From IMG/VR virus record IMGVR_UViG_3300028888_000052: a stretch of DNA of 64,000 nt. One strand, given 5' to 3'. The notes beneath the pieces are model-generated. The model searched no databases, was not told the DNA's origin, and saw only the letters and a program-made list of their open reading frames with translations. Source of the DNA: a virus (lineage: Duplodnaviria > Caudoviricetes). A program made the position numbers and the translations under genes. Positions 14,932 to 62,056 of this stretch are shown piece after piece (within the stretch, counting starts at the first letter, position 1; every line of letters begins with the position of its first letter).

Positions 14932-15635
14932 AATATCCACGAACATATCATTTACCTTATTCTCCTGGAGCTACTAAAGATGATAAGAAGCTTCAGGATG
15001 GATGGTTTGAAAATTATAGAGGAAAAGAAATTGTCATAACAGAAAAACTTGATGGTGAAAATATTCACATGACCGATAGAGATTGTTATGCCCGTTCTGA
15101 TGGAGCACCAACTCGTTCACCTTGGTCAAGAAATATTTGGGACCCACAATATGGTCTTTATTGGAAAATCCAGAAATATATAGGTCCTAATGAAACTATA
15201 TTTGGTGAGAATCTTTTTGGAGAACATTCTATAATCTATGAACGATTAACTAAATATTTTCATTTGTTTGCCGTAAATGATGGTTTTAATTGGTATTCTT
15301 GGGATAGTGTAAAGATGTTTGCCACTATTATGGGTATACCACATGTACCAGAATTATGGAGAGGTGTAGTTGCTGATGAGGATAGTTTGAAAACTTTAGT
15401 AAATTATTATACTAAAGAACCTTCATTATATGGTAATACAAGAGAAGGTGTTGTTGTTAGAGTTACTGGGTTCTTTCCATTAGAAGATTTTTCTAAGAAT
15501 GTTTGTAAGTGGGTTAGACCTAATCATGTACAAACTGATGAACATTGGACCAAAAACTGGAAAGTAGCAAAAATATATAATGACCCTTATGATAATAAGA
15601 TAATGCATGATGGTCAACATTTTGAAATATATTAA
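14928..15635 (+). CDS. ATP-dependent RNA ligase family protein (adenylyltransferase domain)
   Basis: MKYPRTYHLPYSPG, motif I TEKLDGEN, FGENL, FHLFAV, EGVVVR, KWVRPNHVQTDEHW. Confidence 0.85.
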   Translation: MKYPRTYHLPYSPGATKDDKKLQDGWFENYRGKEIVITEKLDGENIHMTDRDCYARSDGAPTRSPWSRNIWDPQYGLYWKIQKYIGPNETIFGENLFGEHSIIYERLTKYFHLFAVNDGFNWYSWDSVKMFATIMGIPHVPELWRGVVADEDSLKTLVNYYTKEPSLYGNTREGVVVRVTGFFPLEDFSKNVCKWVRPNHVQTDEHWTKNWKVAKIYNDPYDNKIMHDGQHFEIY

Positions 15636-17407: not shown

Positions 17408-18131
17408 AGAAGAAAGAAGACAAATTGCTGAAAAGCATTTTATTGCAATGAAAAATCCAATGATTGAAGCTTTGACCAAGAAGTCTCAACAAGATTCAAT
17501 CATATATGACGATATTATTACTTTTGATAATGATATAGAAATTATAGATTCTACTACAGAAAAAGCAATATTTGATTTATATGGTCAAATTCCTTGTGTA
17601 TTGAATTTCGCAAGTTTTACAAGGCCTGGTGGAGGCTTTATTAAAGGTTCTATAGCTCAAGAAGAAGCATTATGTCATGTAAGTAATCTTTATAATGTTC
17701 TTTTAGGATTTGTAGATGAATATAATGAGAATTATAATAAGCCATCCTTTAATAGTGGTCTTTATGATAATTGGGCTATTTATTCACCTAATGTTTATTT
17801 CAAAATTGATAAAGTGGATAAACGTGCTAATGTTATAACTTGTGCAGCACCTAATTATAATGTATATAAAGAAAAATCAGATAATGAAGCACTTTATGAT
17901 GAAGTTCTTAGATCTAGAATTAAATATATTTTAGATATTGCTTATGCAAATGATCAAAAGATATTAGTTCTTGGGGCTTTTGGTTGTGGAGTATTTGGCA
18001 ATGATCCTTATAAAGTTGCATTACATTTCAAGATGTTATTAAGAAACTATAAATTCAAAAAGGTAATATTTGCAATACCAAATTCTTCTAATGGTAATTA
18101 TGAAGCATTCAAAAAAATTTTTGAGAAATGA
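17400..18131 (+). CDS. Bacterial-type PARG macrodomain (TIGR02452/DUF2263) ADP-ribosyl glycohydrolase
   Basis: LNFAS..PGGGF..GS.AQEEALC signature, IYSPNV, ITCAAP, LVLGAFGCGVFGNDP; ATG 17400 is the likely start. Confidence 0.9.
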   Translation: MNKEERRQIAEKHFIAMKNPMIEALTKKSQQDSIIYDDIITFDNDIEIIDSTTEKAIFDLYGQIPCVLNFASFTRPGGGFIKGSIAQEEALCHVSNLYNVLLGFVDEYNENYNKPSFNSGLYDNWAIYSPNVYFKIDKVDKRANVITCAAPNYNVYKEKSDNEALYDEVLRSRIKYILDIAYANDQKILVLGAFGCGVFGNDPYKVALHFKMLLRNYKFKKVIFAIPNSSNGNYEAFKKIFEK

Positions 18132-21100: not shown

Positions 21101-23411
21101 TATGAATGTGGTTATGGGTGGAATCCTTTAATACAAAAAGTAAAAAGAGTCATTCATAAATATAATTTAAAGCATAAAAATGATAAAGATTTTGAACCAC
21201 TTAGATTTTCCCAAGTGAAAGAGAAATGGGGTGCTTTAACTATATACACAAATTATTATGTACCAAGAGTTACAAAATATATAAGAAAAGTTGAATACGA
21301 ATCTTATAAAGTTTGTGAACAATGTGGTACTAGAAAAAATAATGTTCATTGTGAACGTACTCATGGTTGGTATATGACTTTATGTGATAAATGTAGGAAA
21401 GAAGAAATAGAAAGACATAATAAGAATATTTAAATGAAAATTTGGTTAAATGATTTAAAAAAAGACGATATATTTTATCATATTGTTTTAAGAAAAGTAT
21501 GGAAATGCAAACATTTAGGAGATGCTCATAATATGAATTATAGAATGCCTTCTATTAAATTTAAGTTTTTAGGAGGATGGCCTAAAGAATTAGAAGAAGT
21601 ATTAGGTAATGTGCATAGCGCTTTTGTTAATCAATATGTTTATGATAATGAAGAAGAAGCAAAAGAGGCTCTTATGGATAAATTAAAAAAAGAACTTCTT
21701 GATACTCAAATGAAAATAATCAACACAAAAGTTAGATTAAATGAACTAGAAGGACAAGAATTAGAAATTAAAAAATTATTAGAGAATGACCAACAAAACC
21801 TTAAAGAAAATATCTGAAAATCCTAATCTTATAGCATTTTGTAATAAAATTTTAGGATATAATACAATATTAGAAAATGAAACATCACGTAATATGTTTT
21901 TAGTATCTTTAATTAGTGCAGATACTTTAATTGATGAACATGCTTGTGATGATACAATTAATATATGTAATTTTATTTTATTTAACATGGATTTAATGAT
22001 GTTAGAAGAAGATGTGAAGAAAAGTGCCATAACTTATTTGAAAAAGGGAATTAGAATAGCTAAAAGAGATAAGAAACAATTTAATAGTAAATAATATGGA
22101 TAAATATTGGGTAAAAGATATTGAAAAACAATTTAGTTCTTATAATGCTGAAGAGTTAGATAAAATTATAGAAATAGCTAATAAACTTAAAAAGACAGCT
22201 AAGTCAAAACCAGAATTCTTAGATGTAATTCGTGAATATGTAAAAGATAAACCAGGAGTTACATTGATTTGTACTGGATATGTAGGTAAAGGTGCTTGGG
22301 AATCAGAAGGTGAATGTTTTTCTGAAAATTGGTACAATATTGATGAAAGAGAAATTGGTGGATTATTTGGTGAAAAGGGTAGAGAAGGTGACCCAGATCA
22401 TCTATTAAATAAATTCTCTACTAAAGAAGATTTTGTTAATGCTTGTGTTAATTCTATTTGGAATAGAAATGAAATAATGAAATTGACCAAAAACTCTTTG
22501 CACATGCCAGAATGGAAAGATAGTGATGCCGCTGATCTTTCTAATGGAGATTGTTCATATGAATTTATAGATATTAATACTAAAAAAATATATTGGATCA
22601 CTAATAATGCTTATGACTGATTATTATTCAAATGATACAGGTATAGTAGAATGGTCAGAATATCAATCTAAAACAGAAGCACCTGTTTTTTCTGAACCGA
22701 TATCTACTAATGGTCAAAAAATTATATTCGAAAGCACTATTTTATGAAAGATATAAATGCCGACACTCAATTTGACGAAAATGAATTAACAGATTATCCT
22801 TATTTAGGTATAGGTAGAAAACCAAGACCCGGAAAAATGATATCCGAAGAAGTATTAGAGAAAATAATAGGAGGATAATTTCTATATTAAATAAAATATT
22901 AAGTAATACATGTTAGTAAAAGAATTAATTGAAAAATTAAAAGAGCAAGATCAAGAAGCTCAAATAGTTTTTTGTGATAGAGCTGGGCTTATTAATGATT
23001 TAGTATTTGATAGAATATTTTCAGATGAATTTGAAGGTAGAAGAATTGTACCTTTATTTATAGGTCCAAGATATTTTGAAAAGGAGACACCAGAAATAGA
23101 AACTAAAGATGAAAATAGCGATACTAATTAATCCATTAAAATCATTACAAGCTAATATTATACTTGATCAAACGCCTTTCAAGTATGATATTAGCTCTAT
23201 ATCTGATAATAAACGATTTATCCCATCTGAAGATTTTTTTGGATTTTGTCAAGATTTGTTAGGAGATCAATTTGGTAAAAGAGAGAATTGCTATGTTGTG
23301 TGTCTTGATATAGATAATGAAGATTCACTTATAAATCCGATAAGTTTGGTGTTATCTAATTTTGTAGAAAACATAGATAAAGATTTTAAAGAAAATGAAA
23401 ATAACAGATGA
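18128..23411 (+). other. Run of hypothetical genes (18128-18790, 18807-19193, ~19183-19317, 19307-19720, 19717-20316 acidic, 20306-20611 lipoprotein-like, 20613-21092, 21089-21433 Zn-ribbon, 21434-21817, 21786-22094, 22096-22620, 22910-23131, 23109-23411)
   Basis: ORF track. 20306 has a signal peptide ending FLFLSC (lipobox-like); 21089 has QVKEKWG plus CxxCG...LCxxC. Confidence 0.7.
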
Positions 23412-23979
23412 ATATGTCTTTTTTTATAAAGATTGGTTAAGTAATTATCAAAGAACCAGTTTTGTTGCTAATATAGATGATATTCTTGGTAAGACTGATG
23501 GTTTGATGAAAGAATTGTTTACATCAACTGAACAAGGATTTATGTTTATTAAAGCATTGTATTTTAATGATTTAAAAACTGCATCAAAAATCATTAAGAC
23601 AAATAATCCGGCCGAATGTCGTAAACTTGGCCGTCAAGTTAAAGGATATAATGATGAAGCTTGGGATAAAATTAGATATGACGTATTTTATTATCTTAAC
23701 CTTGAAAAATATAAGCAAGATAGACAATTACAATATCTTTTATTAGATAAGAAATTTGATCATAAAATTTTTGTTGAAGCTTCTCCAATAGATAGGATTT
23801 GGGGTGTAGGTTATGCAGAAGATGATGATAGAATTGAATATCGAGAATTTGATTGGGGTAGGAACTATCTTGGCAAAATCATAACTAATATTAGAAATAG
23901 AATATTACTAAATAAATTAGAGGATCCAAATTGGAATATTTACAATTATTGGGGTAAAGGAGATGAAAGCGATAGGTAA
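23395..23979 (+). CDS. NADAR-family (YbiA/DUF1768) N-glycosidase / ADP-ribosyl hydrolase
   Basis: LSNY, STEQGFMFIKA.YF.D, RKLGRQVK, WD, KYKQ, VEASPIDRIWGVG, WGRNYLG. Confidence 0.92.
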   Translation: MKITDEYVFFYKDWLSNYQRTSFVANIDDILGKTDGLMKELFTSTEQGFMFIKALYFNDLKTASKIIKTNNPAECRKLGRQVKGYNDEAWDKIRYDVFYYLNLEKYKQDRQLQYLLLDKKFDHKIFVEASPIDRIWGVGYAEDDDRIEYREFDWGRNYLGKIITNIRNRILLNKLEDPNWNIYNYWGKGDESDR

Positions 23980-27386: not shown

Positions 27387-28226
27387 ATGGAAAGAACTGG
27401 TAAAATGTTGATTACTCTCAAGAATGGAGAGCAAAAATGGATGACTAAACGTGAATTTAATAATTATAAAAAACGTTTGACATCTCTTAAAAGTTTATAT
27501 GACCAATATGTTGATTATGGTTTTATAAATAATGCTCTATCTATTCAAGAAAAGGTACAAATGGTGGTAGATATGGGTGTTGAACTTATGGGCATTATAG
27601 GTACAACAGCTGATAAGATTACTATTACAGGATATAATTCAGTAAAGTCCCAAGTAAACAGAAATATTACCAAAGAAGATTTTGTCAATATCGTAAAGTT
27701 TGTTTGTACCCACGAAGATGGTGAAGGAGTAGATGATGCTAAATTAACATCTAAGATGCTTAAAGAAATTGATGAGAGTGTTTTTAAAATCAATTTCAAA
27801 CAGGTATTTTATAATCAATTTATAGAATTCAATGACTTTGCTGTAGTAGAAGATCCTAAAGATGTAATATTTCCAAAAATTAAATATTCTACCAATAACA
27901 AGAAATTCAAAGAGATAGTAAAGTCATGTGCTAAGGCTAGAAAATATCTTGATCAAAAACTTTGGCCGCAATATAAAGAATATGCTGCTTTGGCAGAATA
28001 TATTACAGAAGGTGATCTTACTTATGAAAGATACAAGAAATTAGTTGATTATAAGTATTATACCGGTGATGAAGATAAGCGTTTTCAAGGACAAGATAAG
28101 AGATGGGAAAAACTTGTTGAGAATTTCTTGAATGCATACAGGCTTTGTAAGAAATATGGATATAATTATTTTGAACAAGTTGAAAATGAAATTTATAACA
28201 ATCTAGCAGATGATAGTATTGTATAA
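27387..28226 (+). CDS. Hypothetical protein
   Basis: 279-aa ORF preceded by a CTATATTA motif. Confidence 0.7.
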   Translation: MERTGKMLITLKNGEQKWMTKREFNNYKKRLTSLKSLYDQYVDYGFINNALSIQEKVQMVVDMGVELMGIIGTTADKITITGYNSVKSQVNRNITKEDFVNIVKFVCTHEDGEGVDDAKLTSKMLKEIDESVFKINFKQVFYNQFIEFNDFAVVEDPKDVIFPKIKYSTNNKKFKEIVKSCAKARKYLDQKLWPQYKEYAALAEYITEGDLTYERYKKLVDYKYYTGDEDKRFQGQDKRWEKLVENFLNAYRLCKKYGYNYFEQVENEIYNNLADDSIV

Positions 28227-28938
28227 TAATGATTGTATAGATATATTAAAGAATATGGTTGGCAGTAATGTAGTTGTTGACCATATTATTTGTGATCTTC
28301 CTTATTTTCAAATTGTCAAAGATGATTTTGATAATCAATGGGATAGTGTTGAAAGTTATGTAGGTTGGTTTAATAGTTTACTTCAATATCTTAAGCAAAT
28401 TATAAAACCAGGTGGTAATATTATTTTATTCTGTTCAAGGCAAAATATGTGGAGAATGTGTAGAATGCTTTATGAAAATGGTTTTGAAGAGAATAGAACA
28501 ATTATATGGGCTCGTAAAAGAGGGTTTAACAATACAAGAGGAAAAGCTTTAGCAAGTGGTTATGAACCGATTTTATTTTGGTCGAAAGGAAAATCATCAA
28601 CATTCAATTCTATTAAAATCAAATCTAATTTAGATAGACCAGAATATAAAACCGGTACTCTTAAAGATGGTATAACATTATCTGATGTTTGGAATGATAT
28701 ACCAGCTCTTCCTCATAATTCTAAAGAAAAGGTAGATCACCCAACACAAAAACCAATTAAACTTATGGAACGTATTGTAACTTTATTTACAAATGAAAGT
28801 GATACTGTTCTTGATTTTTGTATGGGATCAGGTAGTACAGGAGTAGCATGTTTAAATCTTAATCGAAATTTTATAGGAATAGAGAAAGATTTAAAATATT
28901 TCAATATAGCTAAATCAAGACTTAATTATGGATTTTAA
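28210..28938 (+). CDS. DNA N6-adenine/N4-cytosine methyltransferase, beta class, orphan
   Basis: Motif IV variant DLPY before motif I DFCMGSGSTG; HPTQKP. Confidence 0.9.
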   Translation: MIVLYNNDCIDILKNMVGSNVVVDHIICDLPYFQIVKDDFDNQWDSVESYVGWFNSLLQYLKQIIKPGGNIILFCSRQNMWRMCRMLYENGFEENRTIIWARKRGFNNTRGKALASGYEPILFWSKGKSSTFNSIKIKSNLDRPEYKTGTLKDGITLSDVWNDIPALPHNSKEKVDHPTQKPIKLMERIVTLFTNESDTVLDFCMGSGSTGVACLNLNRNFIGIEKDLKYFNIAKSRLNYGF

Positions 28939-54281: not shown

Positions 54282-55313
54282 ATGTCAGAGTATAAAAAAT
54301 TAGAGAACTTAATTAAAGACAAAAAAATTCTATATATTCCAATTTATTCATGTTTTGATTACAAGACTAATGAATTGAATTTTAAGGCTGATGGAAATAT
54401 TAATAGATTTTTAACTACATTTTTCTTTTGTAGAAATTATAAATCTTTAACAATTTTATATCCACCAACAGGAAATAATATTAATTGGTTTGAAACAACT
54501 TGTAAAAATATATTACATGATGTTAATTTAGAACCATGTAGTTTTATTGTAAAATCTGCTAAAATTGAGAGAAGTCTTGATTTTGCAAATAATGTTTTCA
54601 ATAGTTTAAAGTGTCTTTATGAATATGATTTTATTATTGTAGAATCTCAACATTTGTTTTTGAAATTTTATAATAATGGATATAAGAATTTAATTTATTG
54701 GTGTCCAGTTTGTGCAACTAATGAAAAGACAAGAGATTTTCTTGAACCATTCAAAGAATTAGATAGATATATATTTAGTATTGCTGAACATACAATAGTA
54801 GCATCAGATGACCAAGTAACATATTATAAAACTATTTGTAAAGATAAAGAACCTATTCAAATTAAAAAACTTATTAATAGAATTTTACCATGTTTTAATT
54901 ATACAAAACAAAAAGATGTGATAGAATTATTCAATAAGTTTAATAGTTATCATAAAATATTCTTACCATTTAGATTAACAGATAGAGGTTATCAAATGCA
55001 AGAAATATTTGATTATCTTTATAATGAATATAGAGGAACAAAGTCATTTAAAGTTTTTTATACTAATCCTAATAATTGTGACATATATCAATTTGCAAAA
55101 AATGACTCTTATAAGAAATTATTCATAGATAATAATTTTATTCAAGTTAGTAAAGATAGAGATACTTATTATACAATTATTGATGATTGTAATGTAATTA
55201 TTCCTTATTTTGAAGATATTGAATTTATATGTCATGCGGCAATTGATGAATTCAAATTTGGTCATTGTACTGTATGTAAAAATTTGGAAGAATTTAAATC
55301 TATATTGAATTAA
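54282..55313 (+). CDS. Putative glycosyltransferase (GT-B-like), first gene of the modification operon
   Basis: Two Rossmann-like halves (ILYIPIYS...DGNINRF; YDFIIVES; IFLPFRLTD; IIPYFED) and gene context; the fold is inferred. Confidence 0.45.
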   Translation: MSEYKKLENLIKDKKILYIPIYSCFDYKTNELNFKADGNINRFLTTFFFCRNYKSLTILYPPTGNNINWFETTCKNILHDVNLEPCSFIVKSAKIERSLDFANNVFNSLKCLYEYDFIIVESQHLFLKFYNNGYKNLIYWCPVCATNEKTRDFLEPFKELDRYIFSIAEHTIVASDDQVTYYKTICKDKEPIQIKKLINRILPCFNYTKQKDVIELFNKFNSYHKIFLPFRLTDRGYQMQEIFDYLYNEYRGTKSFKVFYTNPNNCDIYQFAKNDSYKKLFIDNNFIQVSKDRDTYYTIIDDCNVIIPYFEDIEFICHAAIDEFKFGHCTVCKNLEEFKSILN

Positions 55314-55330
55314 ATATATATCTTATTGTT

Positions 55331-55987
55331 ATGCCACAAAAAATACAAGATAAATTATCAAGTACTTTAAGAATTTTTAGTGATTTAATTGAATCACCTA
55401 GTTGTATAGATTTAATAAATGAATTAAAAGAAGTAAAGAATCCAACATTTATATTTAGTGGAGTAGGAAAGAATTGGTATATTTGTGAGAAAGAAGTGAA
55501 GACATTTATATCGATGGGATTAAATGCTAAATCATTAGATTGCACGCATGCATTACATGGTGATTTAGGTATGCTTATGAATGACAAAGAGTTAAAATAT
55601 ATATTCTTTGTATCTAAGTCAGGCAAAACAAATGAGATGCATAAGCTTATAGATGTCATAGTTGATTTAAAAGAGAAGAATATCATCAAGAATATCAATT
55701 TAATTATGCTTTGTTTGAATCCAACTATAGAAGATTCGATAGATGCGACAAAGTTTGAGTTTATATTAAAACCATCTATTAAATTTAAAGATATTGCAAA
55801 CATTGAATTAGATGATAGAAATCTTATACCAACATTGTCTATTAATATAACACAAGGTGTCTTAGATTATATTGGAGTAAATATCTATGAAAATAATCCA
55901 GAATTAATTGAAAATTATAAATATAACCATCTTGGTGGCTCAAATGGAAGAGCATTAGGAATGGAAAAATATTTAGAAGAAATATGA
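55331..55987 (+). CDS. kdsD: SIS-domain sugar-phosphate isomerase, arabinose-5-phosphate isomerase (KdsD/GutQ)-like, no CBS
   Basis: FSGVGKN, TFISMG, ALHGDLGM, SKSGKT.E, IPT.S, HLGGS.G (cf. HPGG.LG). Confidence 0.8.
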   Translation: MPQKIQDKLSSTLRIFSDLIESPSCIDLINELKEVKNPTFIFSGVGKNWYICEKEVKTFISMGLNAKSLDCTHALHGDLGMLMNDKELKYIFFVSKSGKTNEMHKLIDVIVDLKEKNIIKNINLIMLCLNPTIEDSIDATKFEFILKPSIKFKDIANIELDDRNLIPTLSINITQGVLDYIGVNIYENNPELIENYKYNHLGGSNGRALGMEKYLEEI

Positions 55988-57546
55988 ATATAATTATAGT
56001 AGCAGGTGGATTAGGTACAAGATTTCAAGATCTTTCAGTTTTTCCAAAAATTTTATTACCAACAAAAGCATATAACTCATTATTAGAACAAAATTATGAG
56101 ATATTTGTAAATGGATGGGATCATAAATTGTTTTTAATTATAAATGAAAAATATTATGATATGACAGTTAATTATTGTCATGTTAATAATATTGATGTAA
56201 AAATTATTAAGTCTACAAATACAAATGGATCATATAATACAATATTAAGTGTATATGATCAGATACCTCATGAAAATGTTTTATTTATTTGGTCAGATTT
56301 GGAATTGTCTTCTATAGATGATTCATTCAATCTAATAGATGATGATACAATATTCACTTATAATGGAGAATATAGATATGGTATAGATGATGGTAAAATT
56401 ACATATCATGATTTTTATGATGGTAATATTCCAGGAATTTATTATTTGACAAATCTTAATAGATATTTTTCTGATTATAGATTGGATGAAAATGATAATT
56501 ATGATTTAATAGAAGCAATTAAAGAATTTAATTATGATATTAATGCATGTGAGTATCAAGGTAAATTAGAAGAGTATAGAGATAAACAAACATATATAAA
56601 TCATATTAAAGAAACTAATTCAAATGTAGAACTGTCATTCAAAACAAGATTTTTTAATATGATTGAACCTGATTATTCAATACCGGGTGAATATAAAATC
56701 AAAAAGTGGGCGGTTAATTCTGATTATTATCATCTTATTAGAAAAGAATATGATTGGTATAATAAGCTTAAACAACAAGATTTAGGTAATTATACTTATG
56801 ATATGATTGTACCAAAAGTATATGATGGTATGATAAAAAATAATACAGGATTTGTAATGGCTTTATTGGATAATTATATGCCATTACATGAATTTATTAA
56901 AACAAGACCAGTAGAAGATGTTCAAAGAGTATATAAGACAATTCATCTCCATTTAGATGCATTATCAAGATGCAAGAAAGAAGTTGATGATTTAGATTTT
57001 TATCAAGATTTGAAAAAAGAAATTATCACAAAAGTAATAGATAGATGCGAGAAAATTAAATATATGCTTATTAAATATGAACCAGAACAATTACAAGTTT
57101 TATTAGAGGAAACATATAATTATTTATGTGATAATACAGAAATTATAAATCATAAGACTTTATATTGTGTTTGTCATGGTGATTTAAATGGATCTAATGT
57201 TTTAGTTCATAAAATTACAAATGATGTTAAGTTTATAGATCCACGTGGATATTTTGGTTATACAACATTTTATGGTTGGCAAGATTATGAATATGCAAAA
57301 TTATTATATTGTTTAGATGGGTATGATGATTTTAATAATCTTCCACAAGTATATGGATTAGATATTCCACAAAGATTGAAGTGGTTTGGTAAGATTAACT
57401 ATCTTAATAAAAAGAAATATAAAGTACTTGTAGGAGTAATTTGGATAGCATTAGCAGGTTATATTTCACAAGATATTATGAAAGCAAATATAGCTTATGA
57501 GTATGGTATACAAATGTTGCAAGAGTCATTAAAGGAAAATGAGTAA
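55984..57546 (+). CDS. Sugar-1-phosphate nucleotidyltransferase fused to an APH/choline-kinase-like phosphotransferase
   Basis: N-terminal IIVAGGLGTRF...PKILLP and WSD; C-terminal HGDLNGSN, FIDPRG.FG and YEYAK. Confidence 0.85.
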   Translation: MNIIIVAGGLGTRFQDLSVFPKILLPTKAYNSLLEQNYEIFVNGWDHKLFLIINEKYYDMTVNYCHVNNIDVKIIKSTNTNGSYNTILSVYDQIPHENVLFIWSDLELSSIDDSFNLIDDDTIFTYNGEYRYGIDDGKITYHDFYDGNIPGIYYLTNLNRYFSDYRLDENDNYDLIEAIKEFNYDINACEYQGKLEEYRDKQTYINHIKETNSNVELSFKTRFFNMIEPDYSIPGEYKIKKWAVNSDYYHLIRKEYDWYNKLKQQDLGNYTYDMIVPKVYDGMIKNNTGFVMALLDNYMPLHEFIKTRPVEDVQRVYKTIHLHLDALSRCKKEVDDLDFYQDLKKEIITKVIDRCEKIKYMLIKYEPEQLQVLLEETYNYLCDNTEIINHKTLYCVCHGDLNGSNVLVHKITNDVKFIDPRGYFGYTTFYGWQDYEYAKLLYCLDGYDDFNNLPQVYGLDIPQRLKWFGKINYLNKKKYKVLVGVIWIALAGYISQDIMKANIAYEYGIQMLQESLKENE

Positions 57547-58096
57547 GAAATTAATAGTAATAGAAGGATTTGATAGATGTGGCAAAGATACTTTAATGTC
57601 AGATCTATCAAATCTTAATAATGATTTTTATATTTATGGTAATGATTTGACAGGATTGCCAAAATATGATAAAGAACAAGAAGAATTTTTAGTTTGGTTA
57701 AATAAATTCATTAATAAACAAGTTAATGATCTGAATGAATTATTTAAAACACATGATACAATTGTCATGTGTAGATTGTTGATTTCTGATGAAGTATATA
57801 GCACTTTATTTAATAGAGAGCATACAGCTATTAAATATATGGATCAACTTAAAGATGTAGAGATAATTCATTATTGTTTATTATTTAAGAATTTTGATGA
57901 ATATTGTGATAGATTGAAAAAAATTGGAGATGAAAATATCCAATATGATTATGAAAATTTTAATAAAATTAATCAATTATATTTAGATAAACTTCAAGAA
58001 GTAAATTACAAATATTATATAAATTATATTTATTCATATACATCTAAAAGAAGTATTTTAGAAAATTTTTATACTTATTATGATAAAGTTAAATAA
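57539..58096 (+). CDS. Thymidylate-kinase-like (d)NMP kinase
   Basis: P-loop IVIEGFDRCGKDT; R..IS..VY. Confidence 0.8.
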   Translation: MSKKLIVIEGFDRCGKDTLMSDLSNLNNDFYIYGNDLTGLPKYDKEQEEFLVWLNKFINKQVNDLNELFKTHDTIVMCRLLISDEVYSTLFNREHTAIKYMDQLKDVEIIHYCLLFKNFDEYCDRLKKIGDENIQYDYENFNKINQLYLDKLQEVNYKYYINYIYSYTSKRSILENFYTYYDKVK

Positions 58097-59324
58097 TTTT
58101 ACAAAAGGAGAAAAGAAAGGAAAGACCATAGGAATTTTTAGCCCAAGTAGATTATCACCATATAAAGAGACAAAATTACCTGGTTGGCAAGAGTCATATA
58201 ATCTTATAAAATTCTTGAAAGATTATGTTGGTTATGACAAAGTATATATATTGAATTGGTATAAGAATGACAAGAGATATGAAAAGCTTAAAGAGCAATA
58301 TCCATATCTTTATAACTTAAAGAATATAGAACAAGCTTCTAAAGATATTGATGAGATATTACAAAAGCCAGATGGGTTAGTATGTTTTGGTGGAGCTTTA
58401 CACCCAACATATTATTATATTTGTTCATTGATTTGGTATAAGAGAAATGATCCTAATTTCAAATTATATTATTATGATCATGACCCACAATTTAATAAAT
58501 TCAATTTTGTAAAAGGAATATCTTCAAGAAAATCTTTAATAAATGTTGGAATGGGAGATTTGGAAAAAGAATATTCTGATATTTATTTAGAGCACCAAAA
58601 AGAATTAATAGAATATATTGATAACAATACTATTGGTCTTTATGGCGGTTTAGATTATGACTTATATTGCAAAAAACTTAAGGGTGATATGCCCAATATG
58701 AAACAATGGTTATATTTTGACATCAATGAATATTCTTTTGCTAATAATTTTGATTTCTCAAAGATTTTAACTGATATTAAGTTTGAAGATAAATATAAGT
58801 TTGGATATTTTGGTATTAAACGTAGAAATAAAATTAGACAAGATATCATCAATAATTTATTAGGTCAATTAGATAAATCCGGAATTATTATTGGTAATGT
58901 TAGTGAAATTATTGATTGTTCTTCTAAGTTTAATTGTATAGAATCTATGCAAATACCAGATTTGTATTATTTCTTGAATAACAATATTAAGTCATCATTA
59001 TTTATAACTGACCCAGCAAATTGGAATAATTATAAAAGTTTTAGATTTTTTGAGAATTTACTTTTAGATTATGTAGGTTTTATTTATAAGAAACAAGATG
59101 TTAATAAAATCTATATTAATAATGAAGAACTTAAATCATACATATATGTTGATGAAGATGATTTCTTAGGAAAAGTAAATCAAATATCTAGTGATGAGAA
59201 ATTATATAAGCATTTAGTTTATCTTGAAAGAAAAGAGTTTTATACCCAAATGTCATCATATATGTTAGACGAGAATAAAGTAATATTTGAAGATTGGTTA
59301 AATAAGCATAAAGATTATGAATAA
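58080..59324 (+). CDS. GT-B glycosyltransferase, resembles phage DNA beta-glucosyltransferase
   Basis: YYDHDP, FGYFG..RR, SSLFI.D...N.KSFRFFE.L and LYV-like elements parallel T4 BGT (FTDP, YGG.FR, TLRVWE). Confidence 0.55.
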   Translation: MIKLNNFTKGEKKGKTIGIFSPSRLSPYKETKLPGWQESYNLIKFLKDYVGYDKVYILNWYKNDKRYEKLKEQYPYLYNLKNIEQASKDIDEILQKPDGLVCFGGALHPTYYYICSLIWYKRNDPNFKLYYYDHDPQFNKFNFVKGISSRKSLINVGMGDLEKEYSDIYLEHQKELIEYIDNNTIGLYGGLDYDLYCKKLKGDMPNMKQWLYFDINEYSFANNFDFSKILTDIKFEDKYKFGYFGIKRRNKIRQDIINNLLGQLDKSGIIIGNVSEIIDCSSKFNCIESMQIPDLYYFLNNNIKSSLFITDPANWNNYKSFRFFENLLLDYVGFIYKKQDVNKIYINNEELKSYIYVDEDDFLGKVNQISSDEKLYKHLVYLERKEFYTQMSSYMLDENKVIFEDWLNKHKDYE

Positions 59325-60348
59325 ACAATTATCTGATAAAATATTTATATGTGGTCCATGTGCAGTTGAATCTAAGGAACAATTATTAGATATTGCAAAA
59401 GGATTAAAAGAAAATAATATAAATTGTCTTTTTAGAGCAGGTGTTTGGAAGCCAAGAACTAATCCTGGTAATTTTGAAGGTTTAGGAGAAATTGCAATCA
59501 AATGGATGTGTGAAGTTCGTAGAATATATGGATTTCAAATAGGTTGGGAAGTAGCTACCGAAGAACATATTTTGTTATCTCTTAAATATAAACCAGATTT
59601 TTTATGGATAGGAGCTAGAACTACGGTAAATCCATTTATGGTTGAAAAAATTGCCCAATTATTAGGAGATACAGATATTTCTATTTTTGTAAAAAATCCA
59701 TCAAATTCTGATTTTTCTCTTTGGTGTGGTGCTATTGAGAGATTATTAAATCATAATGTAAATGTAGTTGGAGTTATTCATCGTGGATTTTCTTCACAAA
59801 ACTTAGCAGATTATCGTAATGCACCTATGTGGTCAATTCCTATTAAACTTAAGAATAAATTCCCTAATTTATTATTGTTAGGAGATCCAAGTCACATGGG
59901 AGGTCATGATTTTCTTATTAAGGAAATTTCTCAAAAAATGATGAATTTGAATTATGATGGATTAATGATTGAAGTCCATAATAATCCTTTAGAAGCTTGG
60001 ACTGATGCTAAACAACAAATTACTCCCGAAGATTTAAAAGATATATTAGATACATTAGAAATACCTATCGAAAACACTAATAATGGTTTAGTTGAATATA
60101 GAATGCAAATTGATGAAATTGATGACCAAATTCTTTCATTAGTTAAACAAAGATTCGATATTACTAAAAAAATAGGTGAATGGAAACAAGAACATAATGT
60201 AGCTATATTCCAACAAGGTAGATATGAAGAAATATTAAAGAAAAATGAGATTAGAGCTAAACGATATAATTTAGATTTAGATTTAATAAATAATATCTTT
60301 AATGTTATACACGAAAAATCAGTAGAACAACAATTGAATAATGTATAA
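59317..60348 (+). CDS. Bifunctional type I-beta DAH7P synthase with C-terminal AroQ chorismate mutase
   Basis: GPCAVES, RAGVWKPRT.P..FEG.G, WIGART, VKNP, HRGF, DPSH, GLMIEVH..P..AWTDA.QQ; CM domain YR.QIDEID..IL.L..QR.....KIG..K. Confidence 0.92.
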   Translation: MNKQLSDKIFICGPCAVESKEQLLDIAKGLKENNINCLFRAGVWKPRTNPGNFEGLGEIAIKWMCEVRRIYGFQIGWEVATEEHILLSLKYKPDFLWIGARTTVNPFMVEKIAQLLGDTDISIFVKNPSNSDFSLWCGAIERLLNHNVNVVGVIHRGFSSQNLADYRNAPMWSIPIKLKNKFPNLLLLGDPSHMGGHDFLIKEISQKMMNLNYDGLMIEVHNNPLEAWTDAKQQITPEDLKDILDTLEIPIENTNNGLVEYRMQIDEIDDQILSLVKQRFDITKKIGEWKQEHNVAIFQQGRYEEILKKNEIRAKRYNLDLDLINNIFNVIHEKSVEQQLNNV

Positions 60349-60928
60349 AAATCGTCAAAAATTAGAAGTTTATAATAATTGGTTTGAGTATTTTAAAGAT
60401 TCTATAAGTAAAGATCATTTAGGATATAAAATTATATTTGTAAGTGATTGTGATGGTATTTTAACAGATGGTCGTAGCTATTTCAATGAAGTTAAGACTC
60501 ATAAGAGTTATGGATCCTATGATAAAGAAGCCGTCAAATTCATATGTGATTATATGGATGATGTAATATATTTTGTATCAGATGATAAAATAGGTTCTAA
60601 GATAACTGAGAATAGAATTAATCATCTAAAAAAATCTACTAATAATAAGCAAGTTTATTTCATGGTTCAATCACCTCAAGAAAGATATGAGTTGGTTAAA
60701 TCTTTGAAAACTCCAAAAAATATAGTTGTATTTATAGGAGATTCATTATCGGATATTCCAACATTATCTGTAGCTGATATTGCTATGACAACTAATAATG
60801 CACCTGGTGAAGTAAAGAAATATTGTAATTACATATCTTTATTAAATGGCGGAGTTGGTGGATTTGCTGATTGTATTTTTCACTTTTATGAAAATTTAAA
60901 AGATGTTAAATCTATTTTAAATATATAA
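60341..60928 (+). CDS. HAD phosphatase, KdsC/YrbI-like
   Basis: SDCDGILTDG, FIGDSLSD, GG.GG. Confidence 0.8.
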   Translation: MYKNRQKLEVYNNWFEYFKDSISKDHLGYKIIFVSDCDGILTDGRSYFNEVKTHKSYGSYDKEAVKFICDYMDDVIYFVSDDKIGSKITENRINHLKKSTNNKQVYFMVQSPQERYELVKSLKTPKNIVVFIGDSLSDIPTLSVADIAMTTNNAPGEVKKYCNYISLLNGGVGGFADCIFHFYENLKDVKSILNI

Positions 60929-60948
60929 ATATATGTTAAAATTTGTGA

Positions 60949-62040
60949 ATGGTTAACCAATTTAAAGTAGGATGTAATTTTGATTTAAAGTTAATAGACA
61001 AAGCAGTAGAATTAAACGAGAAATATAAAGGTAAAGCAGAAATTAAAGAATGGTTTGGTAGTGATGCACAAAATCATTTTGTAACTGCAAGACCAAAATG
61101 GAGATTACCAGAGATTGATGAAAAATTCTTTAAGGAATTTATTCAAAGATCAAGAGATAATGGTATTGTATTTAATTATACAATGAATAGCATTCAACCT
61201 TATGGATCAAAAGCAAATATGGTTGAACATAAACAAGAAATTCAAGATTTTGTTAAGAAACTTGAAGATATGGGTGTTTATCGTATCACATTTGCTAATC
61301 CAATGATGGGAATGTTTATTAGAGAAGTATCAAATATTGAATTAGAAATAAGTTGTATTTCACATATAGATACAGTTACACAATTCAAATATTTTCATGA
61401 GACATTAGGAGTTAATAAATTCTGTAATTCAATTTTGAAAAATAGAAATAGAGATTTCTTGAAAAATGTAGCAGAATATTGTAATGCTAATGGTATTATT
61501 CTTGAATTACTTGCTAATGAATTTTGTGGAGTAGCTGGCCCAAAATATGCAACACATTGCCCATATCGTGATTCTTGTTATTTATGTCATGCAACAAATG
61601 TGACAAAAGAAGATAGTATGTCATATGATAATTATCCAATGCATTTTTGTATGTTTGCAAGAGATGATCATAGTGATGAGGCTTGGTTAAGAATGAGATG
61701 GATTAGACCAGAGGATTTACATTATTACAATGACATTGGAATTAATTATTTCAAGATTTCTGGACGTACAGGTAGCACAGAATACGTTGCCAAGATGATG
61801 GAAGCATATATGTCAGAAAATTGGGAAGGTAATTTATTAAATCTTTGGAAACCACTACAAACAATATATAATGGCAAGAATGAATTTGAAGAAGAATTAC
61901 CAATACAGATTGATAATAAGAAATTAGATGGATTCTTAGACCATTGGTTTGATAAGAATTTTGAATGTGAAAATGAGATGTGTGGTACAACTTGTAATTA
62001 TTGTGAAAGATTTATGAATAAAATCAAAGGTAATGTTTAA
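60949..62040 (+). CDS. Peptidase U32-family Fe-S protein (putative O2-independent hydroxylase)
   Basis: FNYTMN, ELLANEFC-x8-C-x5-C, WIRPEDL..Y..IGI..FKISGR, C-terminal C-x4-C-x3-C-x2-C. Confidence 0.85.
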   Translation: MVNQFKVGCNFDLKLIDKAVELNEKYKGKAEIKEWFGSDAQNHFVTARPKWRLPEIDEKFFKEFIQRSRDNGIVFNYTMNSIQPYGSKANMVEHKQEIQDFVKKLEDMGVYRITFANPMMGMFIREVSNIELEISCISHIDTVTQFKYFHETLGVNKFCNSILKNRNRDFLKNVAEYCNANGIILELLANEFCGVAGPKYATHCPYRDSCYLCHATNVTKEDSMSYDNYPMHFCMFARDDHSDEAWLRMRWIRPEDLHYYNDIGINYFKISGRTGSTEYVAKMMEAYMSENWEGNLLNLWKPLQTIYNGKNEFEEELPIQIDNKKLDGFLDHWFDKNFECENEMCGTTCNYCERFMNKIKGNV

Positions 62041-62056
62041 ACATTACCTTTTTTTT
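62026..62056. terminator. Terminator ending the modification operon (convergent junction)
   Basis: AAAGGTAATGTTT/AAACATTACCTTTTTTTT. Confidence 0.85.

What the first reader, a model, noticed from the sequence alone, without database searches (positions are those of the whole stretch)
54282..62040. Self-contained anaerobic DNA hypermodification operon: U32 hydroxylase, its own prephenate supply, NDP-arabinose pathway and two glycosyltransferases
Seen: eight co-oriented genes, five of them joined by start/stop overlaps (55984-60928), inserted against the grain of late genes and closed by a terminator. In order they are a GT-like protein, a KdsD-like isomerase, a nucleotidyltransferase-kinase fusion, a dNMP kinase, a BGT-like GT, DAH7P synthase-chorismate mutase, a KdsC-like HAD phosphatase and a U32 Fe-S protein. 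Known: U32 proteins (RlhA for ho5C in 23S rRNA, TrhP for ho5U in tRNA, UbiU/V) are O2-independent hydroxylases that depend on prephenate. T4-like phages such as RB69 arabinosylate modified cytosine and carry A5P isomerase, NTP-transferase, kinase and U32 genes. Inference: Ru5P is isomerised to Ara5P, then HAD, kinase and NTase steps give NDP-arabinose. U32 hydroxylates a pyrimidine nucleotide at C5, the kinase feeds it into the dNTP pool, and the GTs add sugar on DNA to block restriction/CRISPR nucleases. The unusual part is bundling the shikimate entry enzyme and chorismate mutase in the same operon, in a phage of a probable strict anaerobe. No thymidylate-synthase-like gene is visible in this window, so that partner is either elsewhere or unnecessary.
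Basis: partly seen in the sequence, partly recalled or inferred. Interest (0 to 1): 0.93.

Follow-up and report, generated by a model that had tools for sequence, protein, structure and literature searches.

The report
Anaerobic phage DNA sugar-coating operon
A large phage from the oxygen-free sheep rumen carries the known gene kit for coating its DNA cytosines with sugar. It lacks the kit's oxygen-requiring enzyme and has instead an iron-sulfur U32 enzyme plus a gene that boosts supply of prephenate, the compound such enzymes use as an oxygen source, which points to an undescribed oxygen-free way of making modified DNA.

Summary
Eight co-oriented ORFs lie at the stated coordinates, six of them joined by start/stop overlaps, flanked by opposite-strand genes and closed by a hairpin terminator.

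Every domain call was confirmed:
- two GT-B glycosyltransferases, one a weak homolog of RB69 arabinosyltransferase gp46:47, the other folding most like T4 BGT/AGT
- an SIS arabinose-5-P isomerase
- an AfhE-like nucleotidyltransferase-kinase
- a Tmk-like kinase
- a true type-I-beta DAH7P synthase with a C-terminal chorismate mutase
- a KdsC-like HAD
- a U32 protein 52% identical to RB69 gp50

The operon is a relative of the published arabosyl-5-hydroxycytosine cluster of RB69/DLP3. There, hydroxylation is done by a flavin/O2-dependent ThyA homolog. That gene was not found in the window or in about 900 kb of related contigs. Among U32-bearing phages, the ThyA homolog and DAH7PS-CM were never found together in the records examined. 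Phages of the aerobe Acinetobacter have the ThyA homolog only, many enterobacterial phages have both it and U32, and the low-G+C rumen-type and other metagenome phages have U32 plus DAH7PS-CM.

My best reading (about 0.55) is that U32 is the O2-independent, prephenate-consuming C5 hydroxylase. No held paper proposes this. Caveats: no complete genome, no chemistry, and DAH7PS-CM also occurs in U32-less phages. The scan's own earlier notes raised the same idea on this stretch.

The parts
54282..55313 (+). GTa: GT-B glycosyltransferase, probably the first (base-proximal) DNA glycosyltransferase; homolog of RB69 gp46:47
   Evidence: No Pfam hit. BLASTP to RB69 ORF046c gives E 1e-4, and to 047c E 0.04. 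The AF2 model has pLDDT 83.9 with a two-Rossmann GT-B fold. Foldseek hits include MshA 3c4q, the same top hit reported for RB69 gp46:47 (PMC13326640 Table 1). The gene is conserved in L003, L004, L008, L009 and L056.
55331..55987 (+). SIS-domain arabinose-5-phosphate isomerase (Ru5P <-> Ara5P)
   Evidence: phrog_5670 E 4e-25. KpsF/GutQ TIGR00393 E 3e-12. 29% identity to RB69 ORF055c, E 6e-18.
55984..57546 (+). AfhE-like bifunctional enzyme: N-terminal sugar-1-P nucleotidyltransferase and C-terminal APH-fold kinase
   Evidence: Pfam NTP_transferase over residues 4-98 and APH over 250-441. phrog_4098 at 229 bits over the full length. 30% identity to RB69 052c (E 5e-31) and 24% to 053c (E 4e-10).
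57539..58096 (+). Tmk-like nucleotide kinase; presumed kinase for the modified dNMP
   Evidence: phrog_761 thymidylate kinase E 1e-9. TIGR00041 P-loop match. Present in every related cluster, and fused to GTa in L009.
58080..59324 (+). GTb: second GT-B glycosyltransferase, found only in the window's sub-clade
   Evidence: No Pfam or PHROG hit. Only 11 homologs among 5.8 billion proteins. The AF2 model has pLDDT 74.5, and the best PDB matches are T4 beta-glucosyltransferase (1qkj, E 3e-8, TM 0.55/0.63) and T4 alpha-glucosyltransferase. The ESM Atlas feature search also points to PF09198.
59317..60348 (+). Type I-beta DAH7P synthase fused to a C-terminal AroQ chorismate mutase (Bacteroidota architecture)
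   Evidence: DAHP_synth_1 at 91 bits and CM_2 at 74 bits, both over their cut-offs. TIGR01361 scores 131 bits against 42 bits for KDO8P synthase. The GPC, KPRT, DPSH, EVH and D motifs align to P. furiosus DAH7PS 1zco. CM residues R11, R28, K39, R51, S84 and Q88 (EcCM numbering) are conserved.
60341..60928 (+). HAD-IIIA (KdsC/YrbI-like) sugar-phosphate phosphatase; presumed Ara-1,5-P2 5-phosphatase
   Evidence: Hydrolase_3 at 28 bits. KDN-9-P and KdsC phosphatase models at E 8e-12 to 2e-8. The DxDxT and GDSxSD motifs are invariant. It occupies the slot between the NTase-kinase and U32, as gp51 does in RB69, but is not homologous to gp51.
60949..62040 (+). U32-family Fe-S protein, ortholog of RB69 gp50; proposed O2-independent pyrimidine C5 hydroxylase
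   Evidence: phrog_5757 at 437 bits. 52% identity over the full length to RB69 ORF050c. Pfam Peptidase_U32 at 37 bits, over the cut-off. hhalign to E. coli UbiU/UbiV/TrhP/RlhA gives probability 96%, E 3e-9, with C193, C210 and C234 aligned to UbiU C169, C176 and C232. C193, C204, C210 and C234 are invariant in 21 phage sequences.
62026..62051 (.). Bidirectional terminator-like hairpin between the convergent U32 gene and the - strand genes
   Evidence: An 11-bp perfect palindrome with T-runs on both strands.

Best explanation
The operon makes glycosylated 5-hydroxypyrimidine DNA, most likely mono- or di-glycosylated 5-hydroxycytosine with arabinofuranose as the first sugar, in a phage that replicates without oxygen.

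Sugar branch (by homology to the characterised RB69/DLP3/HY126 enzymes):
- Host Ru5P is isomerised to Ara5P by the SIS isomerase.
- The kinase domain of the AfhE-like enzyme phosphorylates it at C1.
- The HAD removes the 5-phosphate.
- The NTase domain makes NDP-Araf.

Base branch (inferred):
- The U32 Fe-S enzyme hydroxylates C5 of a deoxypyrimidine nucleotide, probably dCMP, using prephenate as the oxygen donor. This is what has been shown genetically and by labelling for UbiU/V and proposed for TrhP and RlhA.
- U32 thereby replaces the flavin/O2-dependent ThyA-like 5hodCMP synthase of aerobic relatives.
- The phage DAH7PS-CM raises flux into the host shikimate pathway and diverts chorismate to prephenate, because one prephenate is consumed per modified base.
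- The Tmk-like kinase passes the modified dNMP on to the dNTP pool.
- After replication, GTa and then GTb glycosylate the 5-OH on DNA, blocking restriction and CRISPR nucleases.

Shown here: homology, gene order and the phyletic pattern. Inferred: the U32 substrate, the use of prephenate, and the identity of the base and the sugars.
For: 1. Homology to the published cluster. U32 is 52% identical to RB69 gp50, and the isomerase, NTase-kinase and GTa match RB69 gp55, gp52:53 and gp46:47. The chemistry of that cluster is established in PMC13326640.

2. The published hydroxylase needs O2 (18O2 labelling). The window's DNA is near-fully held only in sheep-gut metagenome runs, and about a quarter of its sampled words in goat-gut runs; two sheep-gut RNA libraries hold about 37%.

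3. No PF00303/ThyA homolog was found. tblastn with RB69 gp48 over the whole window found nothing, and Pfam or PHROG scans of ORFs of 150 aa or more added nothing. Records G001-G006, G008, G011, G015 and G021 have none either. The same search finds RB69 gp48 at 56 bits.

4. ThyA homolog and DAH7PS-CM exclude each other among U32 phages. All 14 Straboviridae loci have the ThyA homolog within about 2 kb of U32 (directly after it or one small ORF on) and no DAH7PS-CM. The window, L003, L004, L008, L043, L056 and G005 have DAH7PS-CM and no ThyA homolog.

5. U32 and DAH7PS-CM are linked in at least four arrangements, with DAH7PS-CMs only 38-46% identical to each other: DAHPS-HAD-U32; U32-DAHPS-GTa-Tmk in L056; a U32-DAHPS pair inside a split DNA polymerase in L043; and unlinked in G005.

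6. Oxygen-related host pattern. The ThyA homolog occurs in 57 Acinetobacter phage records, yet three complete Acinetobacter phages and one Pseudomonas phage lack U32. Positive controls were RB69 and G004.

7. U32 travels with different sugar modules: Araf here, UDP-galactopyranose mutase in L027, and none nearby in L043. This argues for a role on the base and not on the sugar.

8. In the wider 360-aa U32 family, neighbours are dCMP deaminase (twice), a MazG-like NTP pyrophosphatase, NMP kinases and a nucleoside deoxyribosyltransferase-like protein.

9. The Fe-S cysteine motif is conserved.

10. Prephenate is the O donor for UbiU/V and is proposed as general for U32 proteins (PMC10990095).

11. 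U32 is by far the most conserved protein of the cluster between RB69 and the rumen phage: 52% against 24-30% for the others.
Against: - No chemistry: the DNA of this uncultured phage has never been analysed.
- No hydroxylase activity has been shown in vitro for any U32 protein (PMC10990095).
- The known RNA-directed U32 enzymes act on polymers, not mononucleotides.
- No complete genome was available. The window is 64 kb of a larger genome, and G006, rated 97% complete by CheckV, proved to be a fragment. A ThyA-like or other hydroxylase gene elsewhere cannot be excluded.
- 10 of 17 DAH7PS-CM-bearing viral contigs have no U32 at all, so DAH7PS-CM can serve other purposes in phages.
- E. coli phage Bp7 has the ThyA homolog without U32, so U32 is dispensable in some enteric phages.
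- Contig G004 (128 kb, completeness unknown) has U32 but no DAH7PS-CM.
- The phage supplies only 2 of the 8 steps to prephenate.
Confidence: 0.55

Rival explanations
1. The operon does modify DNA by glycosylation, but U32 is not the base hydroxylase. It might act on the sugar, on another heterocycle or on host RNA. The hydroxylated or hydroxymethylated base would then come from an enzyme encoded elsewhere in the unsequenced part of the genome. DAH7PS-CM would be a general auxiliary metabolic gene for aromatic amino acids that happens to sit here.
For: - PMC13326640 labels RB69 gp50 only as a 'sugar or heterocycle reductase'.
- RB69 gp48 plus a kinase suffices for 5hodC in E. coli.
- DAH7PS-CM occurs in 10 U32-less viral contigs.
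- A rumen virome survey read viral chorismate mutase as an amino-acid AMG (PMC10465536).
- The genomes examined are incomplete.
Against: - U32 accompanies Araf, Galf or no sugar module.
- U32 and DAH7PS-CM are adjacent in four different arrangements with divergent DAH7PS-CMs.
- DAH7PS-CM is translationally coupled inside the operon.
- The ThyA homolog and DAH7PS-CM exclude each other.
- The known ThyA-type hydroxylase needs O2, and this phage's DNA comes from gut metagenomes.
Confidence: 0.2
2. Same system, but U32 acts after replication on cytosines (or uracils) already in DNA, as RlhA and TrhP act on folded RNA. The Tmk-like kinase would then have another role.
For: - All assigned nucleic-acid U32 enzymes modify polymers (PMC10990095).
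- In L009 the Tmk-like domain is fused to the glycosyltransferase, not to a nucleotide-pool enzyme.
- In RB69 the 5hodCMP kinase is gp1-type, not the cluster's Tmk-like gp45.
Against: - Neighbours of the wider family are mononucleotide enzymes: dCMP deaminase, a MazG-like pyrophosphatase and NMP kinases.
- Every known phage pyrimidine hypermodification begins at the mononucleotide level (PMC13326640 discussion).
- Complete replacement of a base is hard to achieve after replication.
Confidence: 0.15
3. The modified base is uracil or thymine-replacing 5-hydroxyuracil, not cytosine. U32 would hydroxylate dUMP as TrhP hydroxylates U34, and the Tmk-like kinase would phosphorylate 5-hydroxy-dUMP.
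For: - The kinase is thymidylate-kinase-like.
- TrhP is a U-specific U32 enzyme.
- G005 has a dUTPase-family gene next to its DAH7PS-CM.
- dCMP deaminase neighbours the U32 gene in two distant family members.
Against: - The U32 orthologs (52% identity) and the GTa homologs sit in RB69-type clusters whose product is a cytosine derivative.
- In the U32 tree the rumen clade is sister to that Straboviridae clade.
Confidence: 0.1
4. The block is a Kdo-like or DAH sugar-acid pathway (KdsD-, KdsA-, KdsC-like enzymes plus an NTase) that decorates the host envelope or virion proteins, not DNA.
For: The isomerase, aldolase and phosphatase each hit Kdo-pathway models weakly. Another glycosylation kit (UDP-xylose synthase, GT2) is noted elsewhere in this genome (untested).
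Against: - The aldolase is a DAH7PS (131 against 42 bits; KPRT motif; fused CM).
- There is no KdsB. The NTase is fused to an APH kinase exactly as in AfhE.
- The best fold matches of GTb are the two T4 DNA glucosyltransferases.
- The HAD keeps the RB69 slot between the NTase-kinase and U32 in L009.
Confidence: 0.03

Closest known systems
Arabinosyl-5-hydroxycytosine DNA hypermodification cluster of Straboviridae (RB69 gp45-gp55, Acinetobacter phage DLP3 gp76-83, E. coli phage HY126 Afh genes; PMC13326640)
   Same: It shares an SIS A5P isomerase, a bifunctional NTase-kinase, a HAD phosphatase slot, a Tmk-like kinase, a GT-B transferase homologous to gp46:47, and a U32 protein orthologous to RB69 gp50. 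The core gene order isomerase - NTase-kinase - HAD - U32 is kept (strictly in L009; in the window, three genes are inserted).
   Different: There is no ThyA-like flavin/O2-dependent 5hodCMP synthase. DAH7PS-CM has been added. The HAD belongs to a different subfamily (KdsC-like, not gp51-like). The second GT is unrelated to RB69 gp3. The host is probably an anaerobic Bacteroidota and the phage is not a Straboviridae member.
U32 prephenate-dependent O2-independent hydroxylases: UbiU/UbiV (ubiquinone), TrhP (tRNA ho5U34), RlhA (23S rRNA ho5C2501)
   Same: It has the U32 TIM-barrel core (hhalign probability 96%) and conserved Fe-S cysteines. The proposed reaction is C5 hydroxylation of a pyrimidine, as for TrhP and RlhA. 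There is a genomic tie to prephenate synthesis.
   Different: It forms a separate, phage-centred clade of about 360 aa that hits no NCBIfam model. One of the four UbiU cysteines is replaced by a family-specific one. It has an extra C-terminal CX4CX3CX2C motif. The proposed substrate is a DNA precursor, which no U32 enzyme is known to use.
Bacteroidota-type DAH7PS with C-terminal chorismate mutase (for example the Porphyromonas/Prevotella enzymes; recalled from my own knowledge of the literature, not checked here)
   Same: Same domain order, with all metal and substrate motifs and the CM catalytic residues. The nearest cellular homologs (about 46-50% identity) are all from Bacteroidota.
   Different: It is phage-encoded and forms its own clade at 73-99% identity. 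It is embedded in a DNA-modification operon instead of an aromatic amino-acid context.
T4 beta- and alpha-glucosyltransferases (BGT, AGT)
   Same: They are the best structural matches of GTb. Both are GT-B enzymes that glycosylate a hydroxylated pyrimidine in duplex DNA.
   Different: There is no detectable sequence similarity (12-14% identity; no PF09198 hit). The acceptor here would be 5-OH or a first sugar, not 5-CH2OH.

Membership tests
RB69/DLP3-type arabinosyl-5-hydroxycytosine cluster | SIS arabinose-5-P isomerase | tested here: met
   phrog_5670 E 4e-25; 29% identity to RB69 gp55.
RB69/DLP3-type arabinosyl-5-hydroxycytosine cluster | AfhE-like NTase-kinase fusion | tested here: met
   phrog_4098 at 229 bits over the full length; matches both RB69 052c and 053c.
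RB69/DLP3-type arabinosyl-5-hydroxycytosine cluster | ThyA-homolog 5hodCMP synthase (flavin/O2-dependent) | tested here: not met
   No match in the window by tblastn or Pfam, nor in G001-G006, G008, G011, G015 or G021. The control search finds RB69 gp48. The rest of the window's genome could not be searched.
RB69/DLP3-type arabinosyl-5-hydroxycytosine cluster | gp51/AfhF-type HAD phosphatase | tested here: not met
   A HAD is present in the same slot, but the profile comparison with gp51 gives probability 0.5%. It is a KdsC-like HAD-IIIA enzyme.
RB69/DLP3-type arabinosyl-5-hydroxycytosine cluster | GT-B DNA arabinosyltransferase homologous to gp46:47 / gp79 | tested here: met
   BLASTP E 1e-4 to 046c; GT-B model with the MshA hit shared with gp46:47. 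The similarity is weak.
RB69/DLP3-type arabinosyl-5-hydroxycytosine cluster | Virion DNA carries arabinosylated 5-hydroxycytosine | not testable with these tools
   The phage is uncultured; nucleoside LC-MS is needed.
U32 prephenate-dependent hydroxylases | U32 domain | tested here: met
   PF01136 at 37.2 bits against a 22.4-bit cut-off; hhalign to UbiU/UbiV/TrhP/RlhA gives probability 96%.
U32 prephenate-dependent hydroxylases | Four-cysteine 4Fe-4S motif | tested here: inconclusive
   Three of the four UbiU ligands align with invariant phage cysteines. The fourth falls in a gap, and an invariant family-specific C204 lies nearby. Cluster binding was not tested.
U32 prephenate-dependent hydroxylases | Activity requires prephenate and not O2 | not testable with these tools
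   The support is genomic only: linkage to DAH7PS-CM in four arrangements.
Type I-beta DAH7P synthase with AroQ chorismate mutase | DAH7PS catalytic motifs (Cys/His/Glu/Asp metal site, KPRT) | tested here: met
   Alignment to 1zco; C15, K45-T48, H193, E219 and D230 are invariant in A7.
Type I-beta DAH7P synthase with AroQ chorismate mutase | CM_2 domain with catalytic Arg/Lys | tested here: met
   CM_2 at 73.9 bits. R11, R28, K39, R51, S84 and Q88 equivalents are kept. The E52 position is Tyr, as in the Bacteroidota homologs.
Kdo biosynthesis (KdsD-KdsA-KdsC-KdsB) | KDO8P synthase and CMP-Kdo synthetase | tested here: not met
   KDO8P_synth scores 42 bits against 131 bits for DAH7PS. No KdsB-type enzyme is present; the NTase is AfhE-like.
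T4 BGT family (PF09198) | Sequence membership | tested here: not met
   No Pfam hit. There is fold similarity only, with TM 0.55-0.68.

The most novel reading that the evidence does not exclude
The roughly 360-aa phage-type U32 proteins would be the first O2-independent hydroxylases of DNA precursors, using prephenate as the oxygen donor. The family includes RB69 gp50, whose role is unassigned, and has at least 744 clusters at 50% identity.

On this reading phages follow the same aerobic/anaerobic enzyme duality that E. coli uses for ubiquinone (UbiI/H/F against UbiU/V) and for tRNA ho5U (TrhO against TrhP). Phages of aerobes carry the flavin/O2 ThyA-like enzyme. Enteric phages carry both. Rumen and other low-G+C metagenome phages carry U32 alone, and they import the flux-controlling shikimate enzyme plus chorismate mutase to pay the stoichiometric prephenate cost of hydroxylating every cytosine in the burst.
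Probability: 0.5. Interest if true: 0.9.

Novelty: new variant of a known kind. Interest (0 to 1): 0.8.

Why it matters
If the reading is right, four things follow.

1. It assigns a function to a protein conserved in more than 220 sequenced T4-like phages. These include the model phage RB69 and therapy candidates. The 2026 biosynthesis paper leaves this protein unassigned.

2. It extends prephenate-dependent hydroxylation from RNA and quinones to DNA. It also offers a soluble, monomer-sized U32 enzyme with a small-molecule substrate. That could yield the in vitro assay the U32 field still lacks (PMC10990095).

3. It explains how gut and rumen phages can make hydroxy-linked glycosylated DNA without oxygen.

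4. It re-reads 'aromatic amino-acid' AMGs in rumen viromes as co-substrate supply for DNA modification. A rough estimate of my own shows the scale: a 200-kb genome at 27% G+C has about 54,000 cytosines per copy, so a burst needs millions of prephenate molecules. RNA or quinone hydroxylation needs far less.

The hypothesis is directly testable in RB69 and E. coli grown with and without oxygen.

Tried and rejected
- A whole-genome search for a TS-like gene was not possible. No genome is held for the window, and ENA records behind loci cannot be searched.
- Megablast of 24 kb of the window against 50,697 phage records found nothing.
- phmmer of U32 against PDB sequences found nothing.
- BLASTP of the CM domain against E. 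coli PheA gave no alignment; a MAFFT alignment replaced it.
- L001, a human-faecal 'Bacteriophage sp.' contig with a 45% identical DAH7PS-CM, has no U32. It groups with bacterial sequences in the tree, so it was set aside as probably cellular or unrelated.
- I first took CheckV's 97-98% completeness for G004 and G006 as evidence of complete ThyA-less genomes. I rejected this after finding that G006 overlaps G005 with a 49.5-kb offset and ends in a repeat.
- Contigs from the two RNA libraries match the operon exactly and cover the whole U32 gene. Contigs cannot show strand or level, and DNA carry-over is possible, so I do not count this as proof of transcription.
- The Kdo-pathway reading was considered and rejected (see rival explanations).
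- The hypothesis that the HAD dephosphorylates DAH7P was rejected because the HAD keeps its place next to the NTase-kinase and U32 in clusters without DAH7PS-CM (L009).
- I did not use complex prediction. No binding claim is made.

Full report
**1. Observation**

Genes 2 to 7 are chained by overlaps of 4, 8, 17, 8 and 8 nt. Genes 1/2 and 7/8 are separated by 17 and 20 nt. The flanking ORFs are on the - strand, and GC skew changes sign at both borders. An 11-bp perfect palindrome with T-runs on both sides (62026-62051) overlaps the U32 stop codon. The window is AT-rich (27% G+C) and phage-like. It encodes a baseplate wedge protein, RtcB, an RNA ligase, a helicase, PARG, NADAR and a DNA methylase.

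**2. What the genes are**

- The SIS isomerase, the NTase-APH kinase fusion, the Tmk-like kinase, DAH7PS-CM, the HAD and U32 were recognised by Pfam, NCBIfam and PHROGs.
- The aldolase is a real DAH7P synthase. It scores 131 bits for the B. subtilis-type DAH7PS model against 42 bits for KDO8P synthase. It aligns to P. furiosus DAH7PS with the metal ligands and the KPRT motif intact.
- Its C-terminal AroQ domain keeps the catalytic Arg and Lys residues. The Tyr at EcCM position 52 is the norm in the Bacteroidota homologs.
- Neither GT has a family hit, and both model as GT-B enzymes. GTa (pLDDT 84) is weakly similar in sequence to RB69 gp46:47 (E 1e-4) and shares that protein's published structural match, MshA (PMC13326640).
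- GTb (pLDDT 74.5) has T4 beta- and alpha-glucosyltransferase, the two classic DNA glucosyltransferases, as its best PDB matches.

**3. Relation to the known system**

U32 is 52% identical over its full length to RB69 ORF050c, and homologs occur in 222 phage records. The hosts named in the tally's ten commonest entries and in the rows shown are all Enterobacterales; seven rarer name groups were not shown. In RB69 the U32 gene lies inside the cluster isomerase - NTase - kinase - HAD - U32 - 049c - ThyA homolog - GT - Tmk-like kinase.

Lee et al. (NAR 2026, PMC13326640) showed several things about that cluster:
- RB69 and DLP3 DNA carries poly-arabinosylated 5-hydroxycytosine.
- 5hodCMP is made by the ThyA homolog with a flavin, and the oxygen comes from O2 (18O2 labelling).
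- The sugar route is A5P -> Ara-1,5-P2 -> Ara-1-P -> UDP-Araf.
- RB69 gp50 (U32) is listed only as a 'sugar or heterocycle reductase'. The discussion mentions the tRNA hydroxylation pathways without linking them to gp50.

DLP3 and Acinetobacter phage Lazarus have no U32 in the cluster.

**4. The comparative pattern**

Searching IMG/VR with a U32 alignment gave 22 loci. Searching protein collections with DAH7PS-CM gave a tight phage clade (73-99% identity) well separated from Bacteroidota enzymes at about 46-50%. Tabulating all cluster genes over the loci and searching whole records gives three groups.

- (a) Straboviridae of enterobacteria: U32 with the ThyA homolog within about 2 kb downstream (directly after it or one small ORF on), and no DAH7PS-CM. 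This holds for 14 loci, and no Straboviridae record appears among the DAH7PS hits in 50,697 phage records.
- (b) Low-G+C metagenome phages, some from rumen samples (window = L006, L003, L004/5, L007/8, L056, L043, G005): U32 with DAH7PS-CM and no ThyA homolog anywhere in the DNA held.
- (c) Phages of Acinetobacter (57 records with the ThyA homolog), a Pseudomonas phage and E. coli phage Bp7: the ThyA homolog without U32. This was checked on five complete genomes, with RB69 and G004 as positive controls.

The PF00303 search does detect the divergent RB69 gp48 (56 bits), so the negative results are meaningful for the DNA that was available.

In the U32 tree the phage proteins are monophyletic against the four E. 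coli paralogs. The DAH7PS-CM-bearing clade is sister to the Straboviridae clade with support 1.0.

**5. Linkage of U32 and DAH7PS-CM**

The two genes are neighbours in four different layouts:
- DAH7PS-CM - HAD - U32 (window clade and the L008 clade)
- U32 - DAH7PS-CM - GTa - Tmk (L056)
- a bare U32 - DAH7PS-CM pair lodged inside a split family-B DNA polymerase next to a UvsX-like gene, in a T4-like contig with no arabinose genes within 10 kb (L043)
- unlinked, with DAH7PS-CM beside a dUTPase-family gene (G005)

The DAH7PS-CMs of these lineages are only 38-46% identical to each other, no closer than to bacterial enzymes. G005's copy nests inside a bacterial clade, which suggests more than one capture.

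The link is not exclusive. Ten of the 17 viral contigs with DAH7PS-CM have no U32 of any kind, including one complete genome with terminal repeats. In several of these, DAH7PS-CM lies near ParB_N-methyltransferase genes.

**6. U32 acts on the base, probably at nucleotide level**

- U32 occurs with an Araf module (here and in RB69), with UDP-galactopyranose mutase plus the anaerobic ribonucleotide reductase NrdDG (L027), or without a sugar module (L043). The constant partner is therefore not the sugar.
- The family is large: 744 clusters at 50% identity with E <= 1e-10, nearly all 340-390 aa.
- Six sampled distant members sit next to dCMP deaminase (twice), a MazG-like NTP pyrophosphatase, a guanylate-kinase-like protein, a nucleoside deoxyribosyltransferase-like protein or UDP-sugar enzymes.
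- The profile comparison with UbiU/UbiV/TrhP/RlhA is significant (probability 96%, E 3e-9). It aligns invariant phage cysteines C193, C210 and C234 with UbiU ligands C169, C176 and C232. The fourth ligand is replaced by an invariant C204.
- Prephenate was shown to be the oxygen donor for the UbiU/V reactions and proposed as such for U32 proteins in general (PMC10990095).

**7. Habitat and host**

Two sheep-gut RNA libraries hold about 37% of its words, including exact contigs across all of U32. The DAH7PS-CM architecture and its nearest cellular relatives are from Bacteroidota. An O2-dependent flavoenzyme would be of little use in such a habitat. That makes the missing ThyA homolog and the presence of U32 plus a prephenate feeder a coherent pair.

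**8. Mechanism proposed and its weak points**

These are set out under Best explanation. The main gaps are:
- there is no chemistry
- no complete genome was available, and I showed that CheckV's 97% for G006 is wrong
- no in vitro activity is known for any U32 protein
- the choice between a nucleotide and a DNA substrate is open
- the choice between cytosine and uracil is open

The HAD is an analogue of gp51, not a homolog.

**9. Novelty**

Full-text searches combining U32, prephenate, phage, 5-hydroxycytosine and arabinosyl terms found no paper that proposes a U32 enzyme or prephenate in phage DNA modification. The He et al. paper on HY126, cited by Lee et al., is not in the library and could not be checked. 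The only paper found that discusses viral chorismate mutase treats it as an amino-acid AMG. I therefore class this as a new variant of a known kind of system, with a testable and fairly surprising mechanism.

Noticed in passing
window 17376-18131, 23395-23979, 5945-7261, 14928-15635: A microbial-type PARG, a NADAR domain protein, an RtcB ligase and an RNA ligase all lie in the early + strand region. Together they look like a kit for reversing ADP-ribosylation and repairing cleaved RNA, that is, counter-defence.
   Followed up: no
window 28210-28938: An N6/N4 DNA methyltransferase (PF01555, 172 bits) sits in a phage that probably also hypermodifies a pyrimidine. That would make two layers of DNA modification.
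   Followed up: no
window 427-1761: An IMPDH/GMP-reductase-like protein (PF00478, 116 bits; phrog_9582).
   Followed up: no
L043 5610-14441 (IMGVR_UViG_3300027996_000034): A T4-like contig in which a family-B DNA polymerase is split. The gap holds a class-II RNR-like ORF, a U32-like gene, DAH7PS-CM and a 246-aa ORF, followed by a UvsX-like RecA. No arabinose genes lie within 10 kb.
   Followed up: partly
L027 4821-11137 (IMGVR_UViG_3300035208_005360): A T4-like contig with the order GT2 - NrdG - NrdD - 207 aa - UDP-galactopyranose mutase - DUF7695 - U32. Here U32 is paired with a galactofuranose module and the anaerobic ribonucleotide reductase.
   Followed up: partly
L009 2594-4411 (IMGVR_UViG_3300045988_106279): The GTa homolog and the Tmk-like kinase are fused into one 605-aa protein, which hints that the kinase works together with the transferase.
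   Followed up: no
L004 5425-7187 (ENA XIEF21 scaffold_12): An IS200/IS605 element (OrfB/Cas12f-like TnpB plus Y1 transposase) is inserted between the GTa gene and the isomerase gene of the same operon in a related 212-kb phage contig. An extra 289-aa ORF lies between DAH7PS-CM and the HAD.
   Followed up: no
G004, G005, G006 (IMGVR 3300045988_106279, _116618, _128595): CheckV rates G006 as 97% complete, yet it overlaps G005 with a 49.5-kb offset and ends inside a roughly 1.5-kb element that recurs 2-4 times per contig at 82-86% identity. The genome is at least 241 kb, and the completeness estimates are unreliable.
   Followed up: partly
L045 11447-14251 and L050 9505-12297: Phages with DAH7PS-CM but no U32 carry ParB_N proteins and a ParB_N-methyltransferase fusion just downstream. 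Prephenate is also the carboxyl donor for CmoA-type carboxy-SAM synthesis (my own knowledge), so a different prephenate-using DNA modification is conceivable.
   Followed up: no
L059 4061-14636, L060, L063 4393-9104: A recurring module of CYTH - a roughly 1000-aa protein - U32 (36-43% identical to the window's) - a nucleoside 2-deoxyribosyltransferase-like protein. In L059 and L060 it lies next to a ResIII/Eco57I enzyme and an Mrr-like nuclease. The context may be cellular or a defence island.
   Followed up: no
L038 12298-12924 (G005): A dUTPase-family (possibly dCTP deaminase-like) gene lies directly beside the unlinked DAH7PS-CM of G005.
   Followed up: no
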